A DNA stretch of 47,473 bases. Source: Candidatus Aenigmatarchaeota archaeon (GTDB lineage: Archaea; Aenigmatarchaeota; Aenigmatarchaeia; CG10238-14; SCSR01). Below are positions 10,191 through 27,291 of the stretch, piece by piece. The DNA lies in the NCBI GenBank assembly GCA_016187405.1, contig JACPJS010000004.1:1-47473 (forward strand), read 5' to 3'. Both the position numbers and the translations under genes were made by a program. Positions within the stretch are counted from its first letter, which is position 1; each line of letters opens with the position of its first letter. The notes beneath the pieces are model-generated. The model was not told the origin of the DNA. It did not search any database and saw only the letters and a program-made list of their open reading frames with translations.

Positions 10191-10685
10191 TTAAACTTTG
10201 TACAGATATGAATAAAAATGTCCTGTTCTTATTTTCCTAACCTCCTTCCAGCCTTCTATAGGATGACTGGTTGAAACAATTCTAGTTCCTTTCTTCAGTT
10301 TCAACAATTTCGGTTTCAATCTCTGTGTAAGTTTGTGCGAGAGATACATCACAACCACGGTAGCATCTGATATGTTCTGTTTGAATATGTCGTTGTGGAT
10401 TATTTTTTTTCCCGGATTCTTCATACGGGACAACCAGACCATGAATCGATTTTTTTCTATCCCAATTGACTTTGCGTTGAATTCTTTTGATGCGATACTA
10501 ACAATTCTACCGTCACCTGAGCCTAAATCATATACAACATCATTTTTCTTCACATTCGCAAGTCTCAACATCTTTCTTATCGTATCTTTTGGCAAAGGAA
10601 TTGGTGGCGCTTCGTTTCTGACAAGTTCCAACCACAACCAAACAAGAAATGGAATAGGAATTAATGTCAACCAATACAAATCCAT
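10191..10685 (-). CDS. Class I SAM-dependent methyltransferase with N-terminal TM (FAM173/DOT1-like)
   Basis: VYDLGSGDGRIV, GIE, ATVVVMYL, GTRIVS. Confidence 0.85.
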   Translation of the reverse strand: MDLYWLTLIPIPFLVWLWLELVRNEAPPIPLPKDTIRKMLRLANVKKNDVVYDLGSGDGRIVSIASKEFNAKSIGIEKNRFMVWLSRMKNPGKKIIHNDIFKQNISDATVVVMYLSHKLTQRLKPKLLKLKKGTRIVSTSHPIEGWKEVRKIRTGHFYSYLYKV

Positions 10686-10712
10686 AAATAGCTTTTCGTT
10701 TATTGTTTATTT

Positions 10713-11078
10713 ATGGCAAGAGGTACTTTCCAAGGAGACGATATAAATATTTACCTAACTCCGGATGAAATAACAAATTTAGGGTTTTTGGAGATCAGGC
10801 GTGTTGGTAGTCGTGGCAGATTGGCTCATCCTCCACTTGAAGTTGAACTGGTAACCGATGGAGGATTAGTAAAAGCGACGATAGAAGTTACAAAATTGCA
10901 ACAACCTGAAAGATACAGTGACCATATAAAAGTTGATAGACGTCCAGAAGGTTTCTATATTCAAATTGATGAAATAGCCCATGACAGAATGCATTATGAC
11001 AGGCCAGATGATAGAAGGCATCCGCTTGCTGAAACTAGATACAACGGTTCTGACAAAGTAAGTTTTTGGTTAGAGTAA
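10713..11078 (+). CDS. Hypothetical protein
   Basis: 121-aa ORF filling the gap before the tRNA; no recognised motif. Confidence 0.55.
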   Translation: MARGTFQGDDINIYLTPDEITNLGFLEIRRVGSRGRLAHPPLEVELVTDGGLVKATIEVTKLQQPERYSDHIKVDRRPEGFYIQIDEIAHDRMHYDRPDDRRHPLAETRYNGSDKVSFWLE

Positions 11079-14042: not shown

Positions 14043-14585
14043 ATGGTTTTAGATTTTTCCCCAATTCAAACTGAAATTTTATTCAAACTTTTGGTAGCCA
14101 CAGGTATAGGTGCTTTGATAGGATTGGAGAGGGAATTAAAATATAGTCCTGTTGGAATCAAGACTTATTCTATCATAGGTCTTGGTTCGTGCCTTTTCAC
14201 GATTTTATCAGGTTTGGCAAATCAGGATTTTGTCGGGGGTATCGTTACTGGTGTCGGTTTCCTTGGCGCAGGTGCAATTTTCAAGAGTGACAAGGGAGTA
14301 AGAGGTCTCACAACGGCAGCTTTGGTCTGGATATCGGCAGCCTTAGGCATGGCGATAGGTTTTGGCTACTTTACATTAGCGTTGTTCGGAACTGTGATAG
14401 TTTACGTAATTTTGATAATCATTGGTTACATCGAAAGGAAATATATTTCAAGGATAGCTCAGGAAGGCGGTCTCGATATAGAAAGGGCTAAAAGAACTAT
14501 TGACTCCCTTTCAAAGTACTTGGATGAGACTAAGAAACACATCAAAAGCCTTCATAAAAAACAAAAGAAACCATCAACCAAATGA
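14043..14585 (+). CDS. MgtC/SapB family membrane protein
   Basis: GALIGLERE, GIKTY, IVTGVGFLGAGAI, GLTTAA.VW. Confidence 0.92.
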   Translation: MVLDFSPIQTEILFKLLVATGIGALIGLERELKYSPVGIKTYSIIGLGSCLFTILSGLANQDFVGGIVTGVGFLGAGAIFKSDKGVRGLTTAALVWISAALGMAIGFGYFTLALFGTVIVYVILIIIGYIERKYISRIAQEGGLDIERAKRTIDSLSKYLDETKKHIKSLHKKQKKPSTK

Positions 14586-15542
14586 TAATTCCATCTGATT
14601 CTCATCTGTCTTTACTCTTCTATGCCTGACAGTCTTGTATTTTTCGAACCAATCCTTCACTTCATCGCCGAAAATAGGATGCATTACCTGACCAATCACA
14701 CCTGAAGTGCCGTCTCTGCCAAAATCTTTCTGTCTGTAATAATCTAATGCAACAATGTCAGTTCCTCCAACAAATTCGGTCTCATCTATATCAACAGCTC
14801 TACCATCTCTTATCACATAACCCCTTATCGCACGTTCACCTTTCTTTTTTTCGTATTTTTGAGCGAATTTCACTTGTTCTCTTCCCAATGCAGGTGCCGA
14901 ATACTGATGCCATTCTTTACTCATCCTTTTTATTCCACATACCAAATCTTTTCGAGGAACATCTCCTGAAAGCAATCTATCAATCTCAGTCTGTGCAAAA
15001 TTTCTGGCTGAAGAGTAATCTCTCTGAACCAGTGTCCGATTTACAAGTTGTTCAACAAAATTTCTTTCATAATTAGTTCTGTCACGAAAATGCCAATCAT
15101 ATCCGGGAGTTTTAAGATTACCACCGACGTATGCAATTACCCTTCCATCTCCAACAAGTATACATTGTCCTGTTCCCAGTTCAATCATATTTGGATATTC
15201 AGTCCCATCATTGTCAACAAAGACAAAAATACCAGCTACTGTAACTATTTTTTCCTTTTGCAATTCTTGTACAAACCTTTCTTTCGTAGTTTCTATCCAT
15301 GAATTGACTTGTTCCTTCCAAAATCCATGAATACCGTAGAAAACATTATCGTCCTTTGATTCTAGATCTTCCATTATGACTGCAGAAGCCTTTTCCATCC
15401 TTCTTGCCCAAGTTACCCTTCCAGTATTATCTTGAGGAACGTGATTGAACGTTCTGTAGAATCTGGATTTCAAATAAGGAGCAAGAGCTGTAGGGAAGAA
15501 CGGTATATGAAGAACTTTAACGTCGTATACGCCTAGATTCAT
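14574..15542 (-). CDS. Degenerate family-B polymerase palm/fingers/thumb-like protein with C-terminal PIP-like motif
   Basis: LGVYDVKVLH (motif A position), NVFYGIHG (motif B-like), KDLV..IKRMSK.W.QY (thumb-like), ends QMELSFG; ATGA overlap with the upstream exonuclease gene. Confidence 0.55.
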   Translation of the reverse strand: MNLGVYDVKVLHIPFFPTALAPYLKSRFYRTFNHVPQDNTGRVTWARRMEKASAVIMEDLESKDDNVFYGIHGFWKEQVNSWIETTKERFVQELQKEKIVTVAGIFVFVDNDGTEYPNMIELGTGQCILVGDGRVIAYVGGNLKTPGYDWHFRDRTNYERNFVEQLVNRTLVQRDYSSARNFAQTEIDRLLSGDVPRKDLVCGIKRMSKEWHQYSAPALGREQVKFAQKYEKKKGERAIRGYVIRDGRAVDIDETEFVGGTDIVALDYYRQKDFGRDGTSGVIGQVMHPIFGDEVKDWFEKYKTVRHRRVKTDENQMELSFG

Positions 15543-16780
15543 CCTTTCATCCCCAAAATCACCAGTTTCTTATCGTTCATATCGATGGAAGGCTGTCTTC
15601 TTTCACCCAAAGTCAACAGACTTCTTTGAGTTCTCACAGAATAATAATTCGTCACAGAGTTACCAGTGAAACATACTGTAGTAGGATCTGTTTCAAAATC
15701 TATAGCCTCAATTACAATCTGTGGTAAATCTAGTTGTCCTATTCGAACAGTTGTTAATGTATCCCTTGCACAATATCGTGCAATCTTAAATGCAACACCC
15801 CTGTCGTACTTTGCCCTTTCACCAAGTACGTCGAATTCATCTCCTTTGATTTCCTTTTCCATAGGTATTCCATGGTTTTGGGCTACAGTTGGTAATGTGT
15901 TGTTTGGCAATCCGAGATTATTTCTGGACCATGCAAGTGTATCTATCACAAATCTACCATCCACAACTACCTTGTCTGTTTGATTCTTCTCTTTTCCTGC
16001 TCTGAATGAATGGAAACCTGGAATGCCACCTTCAATCCTAGGTTCTGTTCCACCTATTCCAATTCTAAAATCACCACTTCTTCTCAAATGCGGTAAATCA
16101 AAATCCATCAGGTTATGTCCATAAATCCACAAAGGATCCTTTTCTATTATATCCTGCTTGACCAATTCTACCAGTCCCGGAATCGAATCAGCTCTCTCAA
16201 CTCTGAAATGATGACCATCAATATCCATCCAATCCGTACCAGTATCATAAAGTGTGAAAATCGTGTTACCTTTGCCACTGACCCCAGCAACCATGTATAT
16301 TAGCGGATTGTCGGTGTTCATACCGGTCAATTCAATGTCTAGTCCATAGAACGTATCTTGCAGAAGATGTTCAGGTCTGACCTTGCGCATTGTTACAGTT
16401 CCATTTTTTATGGCAAGCAGAGGAGGATATCTCAATTTCAACGATACTTCTGGCTTTGAAACCATTCTATATACCTTAGTCGCCTTCTTGAATTCTAAAT
16501 CAGATTTGAGCTCTCTTGGACCGTAAAGTACAACAACATACATTGATCCCGAATTGAAAATTCTCGGATTATATTGCACCAATGAGGTGCCTCTCAGAGA
16601 TTTTTCCAGTTCGTCTGCCTCGATGAAAGAGAGTCTATCACTGACGAAATGATCATCCATATCACGTTCGACTACATGAGAATGTCCTTGATAATCCCTG
16701 ACATATAACAAAGTTTTTCTACCTGAATCAGGATTCTTCACTCTGATATCTAAAAGGAAACCGTCTTTGACTTCATCCAT
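15539..16780 (-). CDS. PolB-type N-terminal plus 3'-5' (DnaQ/DEDDy) exonuclease domain protein
   Basis: ExoI LDIE, ExoII GHNLMDFDLPHL, DGRFVIDT, ExoIII YCARD; N-terminal FLLDI...LYVRD. Confidence 0.85.
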   Translation of the reverse strand: MDEVKDGFLLDIRVKNPDSGRKTLLYVRDYQGHSHVVERDMDDHFVSDRLSFIEADELEKSLRGTSLVQYNPRIFNSGSMYVVVLYGPRELKSDLEFKKATKVYRMVSKPEVSLKLRYPPLLAIKNGTVTMRKVRPEHLLQDTFYGLDIELTGMNTDNPLIYMVAGVSGKGNTIFTLYDTGTDWMDIDGHHFRVERADSIPGLVELVKQDIIEKDPLWIYGHNLMDFDLPHLRRSGDFRIGIGGTEPRIEGGIPGFHSFRAGKEKNQTDKVVVDGRFVIDTLAWSRNNLGLPNNTLPTVAQNHGIPMEKEIKGDEFDVLGERAKYDRGVAFKIARYCARDTLTTVRIGQLDLPQIVIEAIDFETDPTTVCFTGNSVTNYYSVRTQRSLLTLGERRQPSIDMNDKKLVILGMKG

Positions 16781-16802
16781 AAAGATGAATCTCTGATAAG
16801 GA

Positions 16803-16809
16803 ATTTAAG
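16803..16809. promoter_or_regulatory. Shared bidirectional TATA box of two divergent leaderless operons
   Basis: ATTTAAG lies about 25 nt from both start codons (16780 - and 16831 +) in a 50-nt gap. Confidence 0.55.
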
Positions 16810-16830
16810 CCTTAGATTTGCTGTAGTTTT

Positions 16831-17808
16831 ATGCCACGTGTCATATCGTCGACAAGAACACTGACGAATCCAGTTTTGATAGACAGGTTGCTATTCGTAT
16901 TGTTGCCTTTGTTGGATGATAGACCATTCTTTCCATCAAGAGAAAATAAATATGCAGAAATGTTCAGGCAGTCTCAAGAAAGAGTCCAAGAAAAACCGAT
17001 AGGTGCATTGAAACTAGGACATGATTATCATGCACAGTTGAAAGACCATATTGGAGATCTTGTAGACAAAGTCGTCATTCATACGACAGGAGTTTCGGTA
17101 GATTACACACAGGGAAGATATCCTAGGCACTTGGGAATAGATCCGATGAGTGAAAGAAACAGGTTGTATGCCGAGATTCAGAGTTTGATGCACAAGATTG
17201 GTGTCGAATGGAAATATGACGGTGAATTTCCTAAAGAATTATTCGTTTGGATACCAGTTGCACATGAAGTTCATCCTCTTGTTGTAAGAAGAGATGATTC
17301 ATTACAACATGCGTTCCCAACCGCAGTGAAACATGCAAATTCTATAGCAGAAGGAGAAAACAGGAAAACTTTCGGAGATTTGAAAAGAGAACTAGGTGAC
17401 GAAGATTTCAAGAAAGGAAATTATTTATTTTCACCAGCGCTTTTCGATGTGGATGTAGCTAAAAGATTTTATCTTGATGTAGACGAGGGGCAACTTCAAA
17501 CCTCTCTAACTTTCAACAGATATCTTCTGGGAAACGCATTTGCAAAATTGATGTTGAAATATCTGGAACATGCTGATGGAATCAAAGGAATGATAAACAT
17601 CTATTCCGAACGTGGATCTTATGCATATGATGTTATGAAGATTGCTCAAACAGTTCTCAGAAGGAAATATGGTCAGATGTTTACAATAAACGATTTCGGA
17701 GGAATAATGAGGAATGCCGAGATGCCACAAGAAGCTGAAGCACACATATCTTCATTGAGAATATTGGAAGGTGCAATTAAGAGTTCAGCAAGGAAATATG
17801 CAAGGTGA
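16831..17808 (+). CDS. Hypothetical protein (325 aa)
   Basis: Long ORF; its end AGGTGA doubles as SD for the next gene. Confidence 0.7.
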   Translation: MPRVISSTRTLTNPVLIDRLLFVLLPLLDDRPFFPSRENKYAEMFRQSQERVQEKPIGALKLGHDYHAQLKDHIGDLVDKVVIHTTGVSVDYTQGRYPRHLGIDPMSERNRLYAEIQSLMHKIGVEWKYDGEFPKELFVWIPVAHEVHPLVVRRDDSLQHAFPTAVKHANSIAEGENRKTFGDLKRELGDEDFKKGNYLFSPALFDVDVAKRFYLDVDEGQLQTSLTFNRYLLGNAFAKLMLKYLEHADGIKGMINIYSERGSYAYDVMKIAQTVLRRKYGQMFTINDFGGIMRNAEMPQEAEAHISSLRILEGAIKSSARKYAR

Positions 17809-17812
17809 TTAA

Positions 17813-18814
17813 ATGGGAGATTGTCCGTTCAAACCATATATCAGCTGTTATTTTTCCGATAGATGCCCTGGCAACAAACCAGCTCATTGTACATATGATC
17901 TTCTGTTAGCACACGGAACATCAACACTCGATAAAGATGCGATAGAAAATAATTACAAAGTCAAGCCAATTGAACAGGTTATAGATGAACTCAACAAAGC
18001 TGATAATTATGTATTTGATGAAAGCGGTAATCATAGAGATTTCACAAAGTTGCGAGCCGGCAGAAAAATAGAACCCTATCCATTCCAACCAGTTTCAGGA
18101 GACATGTATCATATCAGAGGAAGTGAGTTTGTTTCACGATCACATTTGGGGAGATTGGTGGGAAAAATGCGTTTTCCAGTTTCCTTCCCAGATCATTATA
18201 GGGATGCTGGTATTGCCATAGACGCAGTCGTCACGCATCAAGACCACGATGATTATGTTCATAATCAAACTTTGTCCAATCCAATGAACAGAAACGAATA
18301 TTGCCAGAAGGAAGTCTTTGCAGATATAGGTGGTTTGGTGTTCATGGGTCACATAGACGTTTCATTGAGAATGGGCGATACACTTGTACTATTGGATGTC
18401 AAAAGAGCAGCACAGTCAAATCCAGGACACAAAAAACAATTGTTGTCATACGCTCTTGCAGTAGACAGAGCAGGCGAGTTTGATGATTATGTTCTGGTAA
18501 ATATGAATCACGTGAATAAAATAAGTTCACGCCCGATGAATCCGAGGTTTGAAGTATTACATATTGACAAGGGAACATCAAGAATGATACCGGCATTATC
18601 AGAAGAAGCGAGAAAATCATTTACGATACAACAAAGCATGATGGCCAATCCTGATATCATGCGTGCATTGTGGGAATTAGAAAGGCCTGATGGCAAGAAA
18701 TCTCTAATATACAGAGGACTAGTTCCGTATGTCCAATATCTTTTTGATCACATGGATGAAAGGTTCGATCTTCTAGATCCCAAGTTCAGAAGAGGATTGG
18801 AATTAGCAGCTTAA
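17813..18814 (+). CDS. PD-(D/E)xK nuclease (Cas4/RecB-like core) with N-terminal Cys4 motif
   Basis: GHIDV...LLDVKR, then QLLSYALA (QxxxY); N-terminal C-x7-C-x5-C-x7-C. Confidence 0.8.
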   Translation: MGDCPFKPYISCYFSDRCPGNKPAHCTYDLLLAHGTSTLDKDAIENNYKVKPIEQVIDELNKADNYVFDESGNHRDFTKLRAGRKIEPYPFQPVSGDMYHIRGSEFVSRSHLGRLVGKMRFPVSFPDHYRDAGIAIDAVVTHQDHDDYVHNQTLSNPMNRNEYCQKEVFADIGGLVFMGHIDVSLRMGDTLVLLDVKRAAQSNPGHKKQLLSYALAVDRAGEFDDYVLVNMNHVNKISSRPMNPRFEVLHIDKGTSRMIPALSEEARKSFTIQQSMMANPDIMRALWELERPDGKKSLIYRGLVPYVQYLFDHMDERFDLLDPKFRRGLELAA

Positions 18815-26575: not shown

Positions 26576-26661
26576 GCCTCATTAGCTCAGTAGGTAGAGC
26601 AGCACGCTGTTAAGTTTCTGCAGATACGTGAAGGTCCGCGGTTCGAGTCCGCGATGGGGCG
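26576..26661 (+). tRNA. tRNA-Asn(GTT) with 13-nt canonical 37/38 intron (26613-26625)
   Basis: Acceptor GCCTCAT/ATGGGGC-G; CT-GTT-A|AGTTTCTGCAGAT|A; CTGT/GCAG central helix of the BHB motif. Confidence 0.93.
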
Positions 26662-27291
26662 CTATTTACTAATCACGTACAAGTCAACTTCAATCTCTTT
26701 CTTTGGCTTGTCATGGAACTTGAACATATGCTGAATAGGAAACTTGTACGGAATGATTTTTTCCACTTGTCCTCCACGATCCTCTATGAATTTCGTCAGG
26801 AACTGAACAGTTTTTTCATAACCATCCTTGTGCAACGAATAGATTTTATTTCCACATTCCAATGCCTTTTCTAAAAATATTCTATCGGCATGTTCTTTCT
26901 GTATTCCAAATGGCGGATTTTGTATTACAGTGTCACATTTACCAGAGAATTTCTTCAGATCAGATTTGATAAACTTGATTGAACCCTTCACAGCAATATT
27001 GTTCGTTATAATGAATTCCATGTTTTGTTCTGCGACATTAAGGACTTGATCGTCTATGTCAACTGCAATCACTTCCTTTGCCCCGAGTATTAGTGCACCT
27101 ATGGCAAGTCTACCACTGCCACATCCAAGATCGTACACAACCTTACCTTCAATGTCACCAGACATATATGCCTGATGCAGTATATCAGCAGCGAGTTCTC
27201 CTGGAATTGTATACTGTTCCAATGATGGCTTAGGAGTTTCTATTTGTTTCAGTTTAGAAAGAGTTATCTCGAGCTGTTTCTTGGAATGCAT
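26662..27291 (-). CDS. METTL5-like N6-adenine RNA methyltransferase
   Basis: LEQY..P, DLGCGSG, QNPPFG, FH.KP. Confidence 0.9.
   Translation of the reverse strand: MHSKKQLEITLSKLKQIETPKPSLEQYTIPGELAADILHQAYMSGDIEGKVVYDLGCGSGRLAIGALILGAKEVIAVDIDDQVLNVAEQNMEFIITNNIAVKGSIKFIKSDLKKFSGKCDTVIQNPPFGIQKEHADRIFLEKALECGNKIYSLHKDGYEKTVQFLTKFIEDRGGQVEKIIPYKFPIQHMFKFHDKPKKEIEVDLYVISK

What the first reader, a model, noticed from the sequence alone, without database searches (positions are those of the whole stretch)
14574..18814. Candidate four-gene DNA-processing system: split PolB derivative plus unknown protein plus Cys4 PD-(D/E)xK nuclease under one bidirectional promoter
Seen: two divergent two-gene operons whose ATGs are 50 nt apart around a single TATA-like element. 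The left operon is coupled by an ATGA overlap; the right has a 4-nt gap with an SD. The left arm encodes both halves of a family-B polymerase, the right arm an orphan and a RecB/Cas4-fold nuclease. Known: archaeal PolB2 operons typically carry a RadA-like gene and a small partner, and casposons carry Cas1 and terminal repeats; none of these is visible here. Inference: a co-regulated PCNA-linked end-resection, repair or anti-MGE complex built from a repurposed polymerase scaffold.
Basis: partly seen in the sequence, partly recalled or inferred. Interest (0 to 1): 0.85.

Follow-up and report, generated by a model that had tools for sequence, protein, structure and literature searches.

The report
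Dead-polymerase exonuclease plus nuclease module
A small archaeon carries a compact gene block that recurs in related tiny archaea: a DNA polymerase relic that keeps only its DNA-trimming site, paired with a nuclease and a base-reader-like protein, apparently an undescribed DNA-processing machine.

Summary
Four ORFs sit at 14574-18814 with the ATGA overlap, the 50-nt divergent gap and the 4-nt gap described.

- **Left arm:** a split family-B polymerase derivative. All DEDDy exonuclease residues are invariant across relatives. The polymerase motif A Asp and motif C DTD are lost.
- **"Orphan":** not an orphan. It has 78 representative relatives and a confident model. Its best structural match is the DUF5591-bearing protein AF0587 (Z 10.1), with weak hits to uracil-DNA glycosylases.
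- **Fourth protein:** a Cas4/RecB-family nuclease (Z 12.3 to Cas4) with an extra, family-wide N-terminal Cys4 cluster.

The genes form a conserved module.
- The orphan occurs in 5 of 371 genomes of the window's phylum and in 41 of 401 Nanoarchaeota-type genomes.
- In 20 of 20 fetched loci, a PolB-like gene lies divergently next to it.
- Orphan and nuclease are fused in 13 of those 20.
- A same-genus genome has the flanking genes adjacent, without the block.

The module is not PolB2, a casposon or CRISPR-linked. I found no description of it in print.

The biological role is inferred, not shown: clamp-tethered lesion or end processing, or degradation of foreign DNA.

The parts
15539..16780 (-). 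PolB-like N-terminal half (P0001, 413 aa): N-terminal domain plus DEDDy 3'-5' exonuclease domain. ExoI D148-I-E150, ExoII N223/D228, ExoIII Y336/D340.
   Evidence: Pfam DNA_pol_B_exo1 E 4e-5 and PHROG polymerase exonuclease subunit E 5.9e-6. D148, E150, N223, D228, K309 and D340 are invariant in 21 sequences. The relatives' profile matches Thermococcales PolB at E 2.7e-32.
14574..15542 (-). PolB-like C-terminal half (P0002, 322 aa): degenerate palm/fingers plus thumb. The motif A Asp position is His, motif C reads VDNDG, and KKRY is replaced.
   Evidence: No Pfam hit. It is collinear with residues about 415-706 of the fused 706-aa orthologue. Profile A4 positions 573-716 match Pfu PolB 591-735. 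Motif columns are not conserved in 23 relatives.
14577..14597 (-). C-terminal QMELSFG tail of P0002, a PIP-like (clamp-binding-like) variant.
   Evidence: The family tends to end in Qxx[LIMFV][FWYL]: 10 of 23 against 6 of 197 control genes. The window's own tail does not match that strict pattern.
15539..15542 (-). ATGA stop/start overlap that couples the two polymerase halves.
   Evidence: The junction is identical in contigs of 3 runs. The same split point is seen in P0008 and P0010.
16781..16830 (.). 50-nt divergent intergenic region with a central AATTTAAG (16802-16809): a putative shared TATA element for two near-leaderless transcripts.
   Evidence: Eleven of 17 other loci printed have 36-66 nt gaps, most with a central TTTAAA-type palindrome. 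No transcript data are available.
16831..17808 (+). P0003 (325 aa): new family with an alpha/beta fold. It is most like the DUF5591-bearing protein AF0587 and, weakly, uracil-DNA glycosylases. Conserved R19, D104, TTGVSVD, NRY, SYA and MRN.
   Evidence: 78 representatives. AF2 model pLDDT 94.3. VIA Z 10.1 to 2q07_A, 5.4 to SMUG1. No sequence or profile link to PDB or DUF5591.
17813..18814 (+). P0004 (333 aa): Cas4/RecB-family PD-(D/E)xK nuclease (core about residues 95-320) with an extra N-terminal domain.
   Evidence: TIGR00372 E 9.8e-5 and PADLOC Cas4 E 2.6e-5. Model pLDDT 92.6. Foldseek SSO0001 E 2.1e-4. VIA Z 12.3 and 11.8 to Cas4.
17822..17890 (+). N-terminal Cys4 cluster C4-x7-C12-x5-C18-x7-C26 of P0004.
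   Evidence: All four Cys are invariant in the 13 stand-alone nucleases and present in most fused forms. The metal is unknown.
18356..18451 (+). Nuclease catalytic motifs D182, D195-x-K197 and Q209-xxx-Y213.
   Evidence: Invariant in 26 of 26 sequences. They align with the AdnB nuclease motifs.

Best explanation
The four genes are one self-contained, horizontally patchy DNA-processing module of DPANN archaea.

**Component 1.** A family-B polymerase relic, split here into two translationally coupled chains. It keeps an intact DEDDy 3'-5' exonuclease site, has lost the polymerase catalytic carboxylates, and usually ends in a clamp-binding-like motif.

**Component 2.** A two-part partner, encoded here as two genes and fused in many relatives. 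It consists of a UDG/ArcS-core-like alpha/beta domain and a Cas4/RecB-type nuclease with an added Cys4 metal site.

**Proposed mechanism (inferred).** The UDG-like domain engages DNA at an unusual base, lesion or end. The Cas4-like nuclease cuts or resects the 5' strand. The polymerase relic uses its retained DNA-binding cleft and exonuclease to remove the 3' strand, possibly held on PCNA. Both arms are co-expressed from one bidirectional TATA element. The most likely role is clamp-coupled excision or end processing in genome maintenance.

**Shown here:** gene order, co-inheritance, fusions, residue conservation and folds.

**Inferred:** physical complex, substrates, PCNA binding and cellular role.
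For: **Module conservation**
- The orphan family is found in 5 of 371 genomes of the window's phylum.
- It is found in 41 of 401 genomes of the phylum of G371. That count includes the unpublished genome G707.
- All 20 of 20 fetched loci have a PolB-like gene divergently adjacent. G024, G075 and G292 do too.
- Orphan and nuclease are fused in 13 of those 20 loci, and in 20 of 77 representative proteins.
- Pairwise distances of the PolB-like and orphan proteins correlate: r 0.83 over 21 pairs, with 0 of 2000 permutations reaching it. Kin are not independent.

**Exonuclease live, polymerase dead**
- The only invariant columns in 19 full-length relatives are D151, E153, N224, D229, K299, Y326 and D330. 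Motif A and C columns vary freely.
- PF00136 detects 0 of 19 module proteins.
- Canonical PolBs exist elsewhere in G024, G075 and G292.

**Folds and clamp link**
- Thumb homology to Pfu PolB 591-735.
- Nuclease fold and motifs.
- Orphan fold.
- C-terminal motif enrichment, 10 of 23 against 6 of 197.
- A PCNA gene is present in G000.

**Discrete block**
- In same-genus locus L098 the flanking MgtC-like and GatC-like genes lie 190 nt apart, without the module.
Against: - No activity, interaction or expression data exist.
- The window's own C-terminus (QMELSFG) fails both the strict family pattern and the canonical PIP box.
- The orphan's fold assignment rests on one Z 10.1 match plus Z 4-5.4 UDG matches interleaved with alpha/beta hydrolases and tubulins. 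Foldseek found nothing. hhalign against DUF5591 gave a probability of 3.3%.
- No UDG catalytic motifs are recognisable.
- The window's nuclease lacks the C-terminal Cys triad seen in most relatives.
- The sporadic distribution and the variable insertion spot fit an accessory or defence gene as well as a repair gene.
- G292 has the polymerase relic and orphan without the nuclease next to it, so the nuclease is not obligatory.
Confidence: 0.5

Rival explanations
1. Anti-virus or anti-plasmid defence. The UDG/ArcS-core-like domain reads a modified or non-canonical base in foreign DNA. It then licenses destruction by the Cas4-like nuclease and the polymerase-derived exonuclease, making a modification-dependent restriction system.
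For: - Patchy distribution: 5 of 371 and 41 of 401 genomes.
- The module sits at a variable spot. The same site is empty in L098 and holds an unrelated 354-aa gene in L096.
- The closest fold match carries the DUF5591 domain. Viral members of that domain family act on 7-deazaguanine in DNA (passages of 10.1101/2023.04.13.536721).
- Solo Cas4 genes of DPANN have been suspected of defence roles (passages of PMC5704561).
Against: - No PADLOC system matches beyond generic Cas4-like or DEDDh domains.
- Neighbours are housekeeping genes and are not conserved. No restriction-modification, toxin or abortive-infection genes were seen next to it.
- A clamp-binding-like tail points to replication or repair.
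- The ArcS motif PC-x3-KPY-x2-S-x2-H is absent and profile similarity is nil.
Confidence: 0.28
2. Relic of a virus, plasmid or casposon-like replication module (PolB + UDG + PD-(D/E)xK nuclease, as in large DNA viruses) that is decaying or selfish, with no host function.
For: - The module appears as a discrete 4.2-kb block relative to same-genus genomes.
- The polymerase is catalytically dead.
- The trio of protein types recalls viral replisomes (recalled). Vaccinia D4 and the EBV alkaline nuclease appear among weak fold hits.
Against: - Exonuclease and nuclease catalytic residues are invariant across proteins only 17-30% identical, which shows long purifying selection.
- There is no Cas1 in G000, which is 73% complete.
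- There are no convincing terminal repeats, and no integrase among the neighbours.
- No relatives were found in viral contigs, phage or plasmid collections with the queries used.
Confidence: 0.1
3. The split polymerase is a pseudogene or assembly error. The cluster is either a chance neighbourhood or an ordinary PolB2-type translesion operon.
For: The gene is in two pieces, and Pfam sees only a weak exonuclease hit.
Against: - The same split point recurs in P0008 (47% identity) and P0010 (31%).
- The ATGA coupling and the identical junction in 3 runs argue against an error.
- Adjacency holds in 20 of 20 loci.
- PolB2 lacks conserved ExoI and ExoIII (passages of PMC7544198), whereas both are invariant here.
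- The PolB2 partners PPB2 and iRadA (abstract of PMC11791011) are not present among the four proteins.
Confidence: 0.03

Closest known systems
Archaeal family-B DNA polymerases of the Thermococcales type (e.g. PDB 2jgu, 1tgo)
   Same: Collinear N-terminal/exonuclease domain with ExoI-III, and a thumb region that aligns to residues 591-735. There is also a C-terminal clamp-binding-like tail.
   Different: The motif A Asp and motif C DTD are absent in all 23 module members, and KKRY is not kept. PF00136 matches 0 of 19. The gene is split here. It is always paired with the orphan gene, and the carriers have separate canonical PolBs.
PolB2 (Dpo2) mutasome with PPB2 and iRadA
   Same: A divergent archaeal PolB paralogue once thought inactive. 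It works with dedicated partner proteins, and some members carry clamp-binding motifs (abstract of PMC11791011).
   Different: PolB2 has lost ExoI and ExoIII but polymerises (passages of PMC7544198). Here the exonuclease is intact and the polymerase site is lost. The partners are a UDG-like protein and a Cas4-like nuclease, not PPB2 and iRadA.
Cas4 / RecB-family nucleases (SSO0001, type I-C Cas4, AdnAB and AddB nuclease domains)
   Same: The fold matches: Z 12.3, 11.8, 9.2 and 9.2. The D...DxK...QxxxY motifs are invariant. Most relatives have a C-terminal Cys triad.
   Different: There is an extra N-terminal domain of about 95 residues with an invariant Cys4. The window's protein lacks the C-terminal Cys. 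No Cas1 or CRISPR context exists. It is often fused to the orphan domain.
AF0587 / ArcS core domain (DUF5591) and the uracil-DNA glycosylase fold
   Same: The best structural match of the orphan is 2q07_A: Z 10.1, rmsd 3.1 Å, 138 residues. SMUG1, MUG, TDG and viral UDGs recur at Z 3.4-5.4. 2q07 carries the DUF5591 motif region.
   Different: No sequence or profile similarity: hhalign probability 3.3% and 0 PDB hits. The ArcS motif and the UDG motifs are not recognisable. That AF0587 is classed with the UDG fold is my recollection.
Catalytically inactive C-terminal PolB module of eukaryotic Pol epsilon
   Same: A PolB copy retained as a scaffold after loss of catalysis (passages of PMC7544198).
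   Different: In Pol epsilon C both the exonuclease and the polymerase are inactive, and it binds the CMG helicase. Here the exonuclease site is strictly conserved.

Membership tests
Family-B DNA polymerase (as homologue) | Exonuclease domain with ExoI DxE, ExoII NxxxFD and ExoIII YxxxD | tested here: met
   Pfam PF03104 E 4e-5. The residues are invariant in 19-21 relatives. PDB profile match E 2.7e-32.
Family-B DNA polymerase (as active polymerase) | Motif A DxxSLYPS Asp and motif C DTD carboxylates | tested here: not met
   The window has VLHIPFFPT and FVDNDG. The columns are unconserved in 23 relatives. PF00136 matches 0 of 19.
Family-B DNA polymerase (as homologue) | Collinear palm-end/thumb region | tested here: met
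   Profile A4 positions 573-716 match Pfu PolB 591-735, i-E 6.5e-6. No structure of P0002 was predicted.
PolB2 mutasome | ExoI not conserved and ExoIII missing; partners PPB2 and iRadA | tested here: not met
   The exo motifs are invariant here. None of the four proteins hits RadA/Rad51 families. PolB2 features are taken from passages of PMC7544198 and the abstract of PMC11791011.
Casposon | Cas1 integrase and terminal inverted repeats around a PolB | tested here: not met
   No PF01867 match in G000, which is 73% complete. Only short, low-identity repeats inside the flanking genes. The flanks are an FtsZ-like gene (my reading of the 383-aa translation) and MgtC- and GatC-like genes, in conserved synteny with same-genus genomes.
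Cas4 / RecB-family PD-(D/E)xK nuclease | RecB motifs II (D), III (D/ExK) and QxxxY on a Cas4-like fold | tested here: met
   D182, D195, K197, Q209 and Y213 are invariant in 26 of 26 sequences. Foldseek E 2.1e-4 and VIA Z 12.3 to Cas4 structures. HMM scores lie below the curated cut-offs.
Cas4 proper | Fe-S cluster held by one N-terminal and three C-terminal Cys; CRISPR-cas or adaptation context | tested here: not met
   The window's protein has no C-terminal Cys triad and G000 has no Cas1. Most relatives keep a C-terminal triad.
Uracil-DNA glycosylase superfamily | UDG alpha/beta fold with motif 1 (GxxPx after strand 1) and motif 2 (HPSP-like) | tested here: inconclusive
   Fold hits to SMUG1 Z 5.4, MUG 4.3, TDG 4.2 and D4 4.1 are interleaved with unrelated folds. 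The motifs are recalled and were not recognised in alignment A3.
ArcS core / DUF5591 (PF17884) | Motif PC-x3-KPY-x2-S-x2-H; Pfam profile match | tested here: not met
   No Pfam hit. hhalign A3 vs A9 probability 3.3%. The motif is absent from A3. Only structural likeness, Z 10.1. The motif is quoted.
PIP-box clamp binders | Qxx[LIM]xx[FY][FY] (canonical, recalled) at a terminus, binding PCNA | tested here: inconclusive
   The window tail is QMELSFG. The short form Qxx[LIMFV][FWYL] occurs in 10 of 23 relatives against 6 of 197 controls. Binding was not tested.

The most novel reading that the evidence does not exclude
A new class of archaeal nucleic-acid surveillance machine. A base-flipping reader domain of UDG/ArcS-core fold recognises a non-canonical or hypermodified base, such as uracil or a 7-deazaguanine. 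It hands the DNA to a Cas4-like nuclease and to a polymerase-turned-exonuclease riding on PCNA. The two strands are then degraded with opposite polarity without any helicase. In effect this would be a modification-dependent restriction or lesion-excision system built on a dead replicative polymerase.
Probability: 0.2. Interest if true: 0.9.

Novelty: new variant of a known kind. Interest (0 to 1): 0.72.

Why it matters
Inactivated polymerases kept as scaffolds are central to eukaryotic Pol epsilon and archaeal PolB2, but both lost the exonuclease. Here the reverse happened: the exonuclease survives and the polymerase site is gone. The relic is locked to a nuclease and a glycosylase-fold protein in about one in ten of the 401 Nanoarchaeota-type genomes sampled.

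DPANN archaea have minimal genomes and poorly understood DNA repair and defence. A dedicated three-part module is therefore likely to matter for how they maintain or protect DNA.

The family is nearly invisible to Pfam: 3 of 19 members hit the exonuclease model and none hits the polymerase model. Automated annotation therefore misses it.

It also yields a new protein family with a confident model, and testable enzymes.

Tried and rejected
**Fold and homology searches that gave nothing usable**
- Foldseek of the orphan model against PDB and BFVD gave no match at E <= 0.001.
- The ESM Atlas gave no usable lead, because its own model is poor.
- Profile A3 against PDB sequences gave 0 hits.
- hhalign of A3 against a DUF5591 alignment gave probability 3.3%.

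**Complex prediction**
- Complex prediction with P0001(130-413) + P0002 + P0003 gave no verdict (score 0.00, controls not run). This is neither support nor evidence against binding.

**Viral, phage and plasmid collections**
- Viral-contig scans with A1 and A2 found no relative. Those patterns were narrow.
- tblastn of P0003 against the phage and plasmid collections found no match.

**Expression**
- No RNA holder is listed for the stretch, so there is no expression evidence either way.

**Defence libraries**
- PADLOC and PHROGs gave only generic DEDDh, Cas4 and polymerase-exonuclease hits.

**Ideas rejected**
- I considered that the roughly 800-aa PolB-like genes found by the search for related loci were further module instances. 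They have no orphan or nuclease neighbour, and their genomes lack the orphan (0 of 5). They are a separate subfamily.
- I rejected a transposon reading for lack of terminal repeats.

**Literature**
- Searches found no description of the module. Neither did passages read in PMC7544198 and PMC5704561.
- The supplementary tables of both papers were closed and may list such proteins.
- The library lacks most subscription journals.

**Not done**
- No structure of P0002.
- No residue-level superposition of the orphan on UDGs.

Full report
**1. Observation**

One search confirms four ORFs at the stated coordinates:
- P0001: 15539-16780(-), 413 aa
- P0002: 14574-15542(-), 322 aa
- P0003: 16831-17808(+), 325 aa
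- P0004: 17813-18814(+), 333 aa

P0001 and P0002 overlap in GGATGA. The divergent ATGs are 50 nt apart, with AATTTAAG at 16802-16809, about 25 nt from each. P0003 and P0004 are 4 nt apart, with AGGTGA upstream.

Contigs of three runs from one groundwater study (possibly the source) cover the P0001/P0002 junction with no differences. The GC content of the block is like that of its surroundings.

**2. Host**

The window lies in a 440-kb, 73%-complete genome. A source names the closest relative's protein as coming from a Candidatus Aenigmarchaeota archaeon. The host is therefore a DPANN archaeon.

**3. Polymerase relic**

- **P0001:** it matches the PolB exonuclease domain (Pfam E 4e-5; PHROGs).
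- **P0002:** it has no Pfam hit. In a same-family genome (G024) the two halves are one 706-aa protein, P0005.
- **Link to PolB:** a profile of 19 full-length relatives (A4) matches Thermococcales PolB at E 2.7e-32 in two collinear stretches. The exonuclease stretch runs 148-406 to 135-378. The region from KKRY through the thumb runs 573-716 to 591-735.
- **Conservation:** the only invariant columns of A4 are D151, E153, N224, D229, K299, Y326 and D330, which is the DEDDy site. The motif A and motif C columns have no conserved acidic residue in any of 23 members. The window reads VLHIPFFPT and FVDNDG, and G024 reads AIYVPLFEE and LEDNG.
- **Detectability:** Pfam detects the exonuclease domain in 3 of 19 members and the polymerase domain in 0 of 19.
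- **Not the replicase:** PF00136 finds canonical 800-900-aa PolBs elsewhere in G024, G075 and G292, and in two module-free congeners (5 of 5 genomes). None was found in the incomplete G000.
- **The split is real:** P0008 (47% identity) and P0010 (31%) end at the same inter-domain point. One Nanoarchaeota-type locus (L069) is split elsewhere.
- **C-terminal tail:** 10 of 23 module polymerases end in Qxx[LIMFV][FWYL], against 6 of 197 other genes of the same loci. The window's QMELSFG is a variant that fails this pattern. G000 encodes a PCNA.

**4. The "orphan"**

- A two-sequence profile found 78 representative proteins at E <= 1e-3, 54 of them at <= 1e-10.
- The family is very divergent, with 24% mean column identity. 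R19 and D104 are nearly invariant.
- With this alignment AlphaFold2 gave pLDDT 94.3 and pTM 0.93.
- Foldseek found nothing.
- The exhaustive VIA search gave 2q07_A (AF0587) at Z 10.1, rmsd 3.1 Å over 138 residues, well above the next rows. Those rows include SMUG1 (Z 5.4), MUG (4.3), SMUG2 (4.2), TDG (4.2) and vaccinia D4 (4.1), interleaved with alpha/beta hydrolases.
- SMUG1 again led the second look (Z 5.4). A pithovirus UDG led the non-significant BFVD list.
- 2q07 carries the DUF5591 motif region. The Nanoarchaeum protein NEQ526 aligns to its positions 19-103 at E 2.5e-9. If the entry's numbering is offset by about 225, the VIA range 244-394 is that domain. This is an inference.
- According to passages of 10.1101/2023.04.13.536721, DUF5591 is the catalytic core of archaeosine synthase. 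Viral copies act on 7-deazaguanine in DNA.
- Sequence-level kinship is not supported: hhalign probability 3.3%, no PDB profile hit, and no ArcS motif.
- I therefore call it a new family with a UDG/ArcS-core-like fold. That AF0587 is classed with the UDG fold is my recollection.

**5. Nuclease**

- P0004 hits Cas4 models weakly (TIGR00372 E 9.8e-5; PADLOC E 2.6e-5).
- In 26 family members, S104, G133, D182, D195, K197, Q209 and Y213 are invariant.
- The model (pLDDT 92.6) matches SSO0001 Cas4 by Foldseek at E 2.1e-4.
- By VIA it matches Cas4 of Cas4-Cas1 complexes at Z 12.3 and 11.8. SSO0001 and AdnA score 9.2, AddB 7.8 and Dna2 7.5, all over residues about 95-320.
- Residues 1-95 form an extra domain. 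Its four Cys (4, 12, 18, 26) are invariant in the 13 stand-alone nucleases.
- Most relatives also have a Cas4-like C-terminal Cys triad. The window's clade has lost it.

**6. The module**

- **Own phylum:** the orphan profile matches 5 of 371 genomes. G024 and G075 have polymerase relic, orphan and nuclease. G292 has relic and orphan followed by an unrelated gene. In G074 the contig ends at the orphan.
- **Phylum of G371:** it matches 41 of 401 genomes (this includes the unpublished G707, which I did not analyse).
- **Adjacency:** I fetched the 20 best published loci. In 20 of 20 a PolB-like gene lies next to the orphan on the opposite strand. One is cut by a contig end, and one was found by BLAST clustering only.
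- **Fusion:** orphan and nuclease are one ORF in 13 of those 20 loci and two ORFs in 7.
- **Representatives:** 20 of 77 carry the nuclease domain behind the orphan domain.
- **Short contig:** the metagenome contig L007 shows the same divergent pair.
- **Other neighbours:** none is conserved beyond close kin.
- **Co-divergence:** distances of relic and orphan correlate at r 0.83 over 21 pairs, with 0 of 2000 permutations reaching it. Kin are not independent.
- **Promoter:** the intergenic gap is 36-66 nt in 12 of the 17 loci printed (the window included), most with a central TTTAAA-type palindrome.
- **Synteny:** in same-genus genomes the flanking synteny is kept (an FtsZ-like gene by my reading of its translation, then MgtC-like, GatC-like and GatA-like genes). 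The MgtC-GatC gap is 190 nt in L098. In L096 it holds an unrelated 354-aa gene with no Pfam or PADLOC match. The module is thus a discrete block at a variable spot.

**7. Interpretation**

Shown here:
- A conserved two-to-four-gene unit.
- Strong purifying selection on two nuclease active sites.
- Loss of the polymerase site.
- Gene fusion of the orphan with the nuclease.

Inferred:
- The proteins act together on DNA.
- The UDG-like domain supplies recognition.
- The Cas4-like enzyme and the PolB exonuclease supply opposite-polarity degradation.
- The clamp tethers the relic.

Repair and defence cannot be separated with these data. I put clamp-coupled genome maintenance first (0.5) and modification- or foreign-DNA-directed defence second (0.28).

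Neither PolB2 nor casposon membership survives the feature tests.

**8. Literature and tools**

Four searches, and passages of the PolB survey (PMC7544198) and the Cas4 phylogenomics paper (PMC5704561), gave no description of this module.

Noticed in passing
Loci L004-L024 (e.g. L004:4129-6531, L016:7995-10361): A second subfamily of roughly 770-830-aa PolB-like proteins occurs in small DPANN-type genomes. It keeps DIE / GHNxMxFDQ / YCxxD exonuclease motifs but lacks the motif A Asp and motif C DTD. It sits in a conserved housekeeping neighbourhood. By my reading of the translations, that is a DnaG-like primase upstream (12 loci) and a RIO-type kinase plus a KH-domain protein downstream (8 loci). 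Five such genomes lack the orphan family.
   Followed up: partly
L096:8086-9150 (same-genus genome G007), at the position of the module: The MgtC-GatC gap that holds the module in the window holds an unrelated 354-aa gene here, with no Pfam or PADLOC match. In G006 (L098) the gap is empty at 190 nt. The site looks like a variable hotspot.
   Followed up: partly
L069:4459-7020: In one Nanoarchaeota-type locus the module's PolB-like gene is in two ORFs (236 aa and 609 aa). The split is at a different point from the window's.
   Followed up: no
L032:8071-10291 and 10309-11022 (G292): This is a module variant without the nuclease. The orphan is followed by an unrelated 382-aa gene. A 237-aa Cys-rich protein that looks like an endonuclease III/HhH-type glycosylase (by eye, not tested) lies just beyond, on the other strand.
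   Followed up: no
Proteins P0092-P0102: DUF5591 (ArcS core) is fused to a radical-SAM domain in 385-428-aa proteins from DPANN-type sources. The Nanoarchaeum copy (NEQ526) is the core domain alone.
   Followed up: no
window 26576-26662 (+): ARAGORN reports an 87-nt tRNA of undetermined identity with a two-letter anticodon call. It may be an intron-containing or otherwise atypical tRNA.
   Followed up: no
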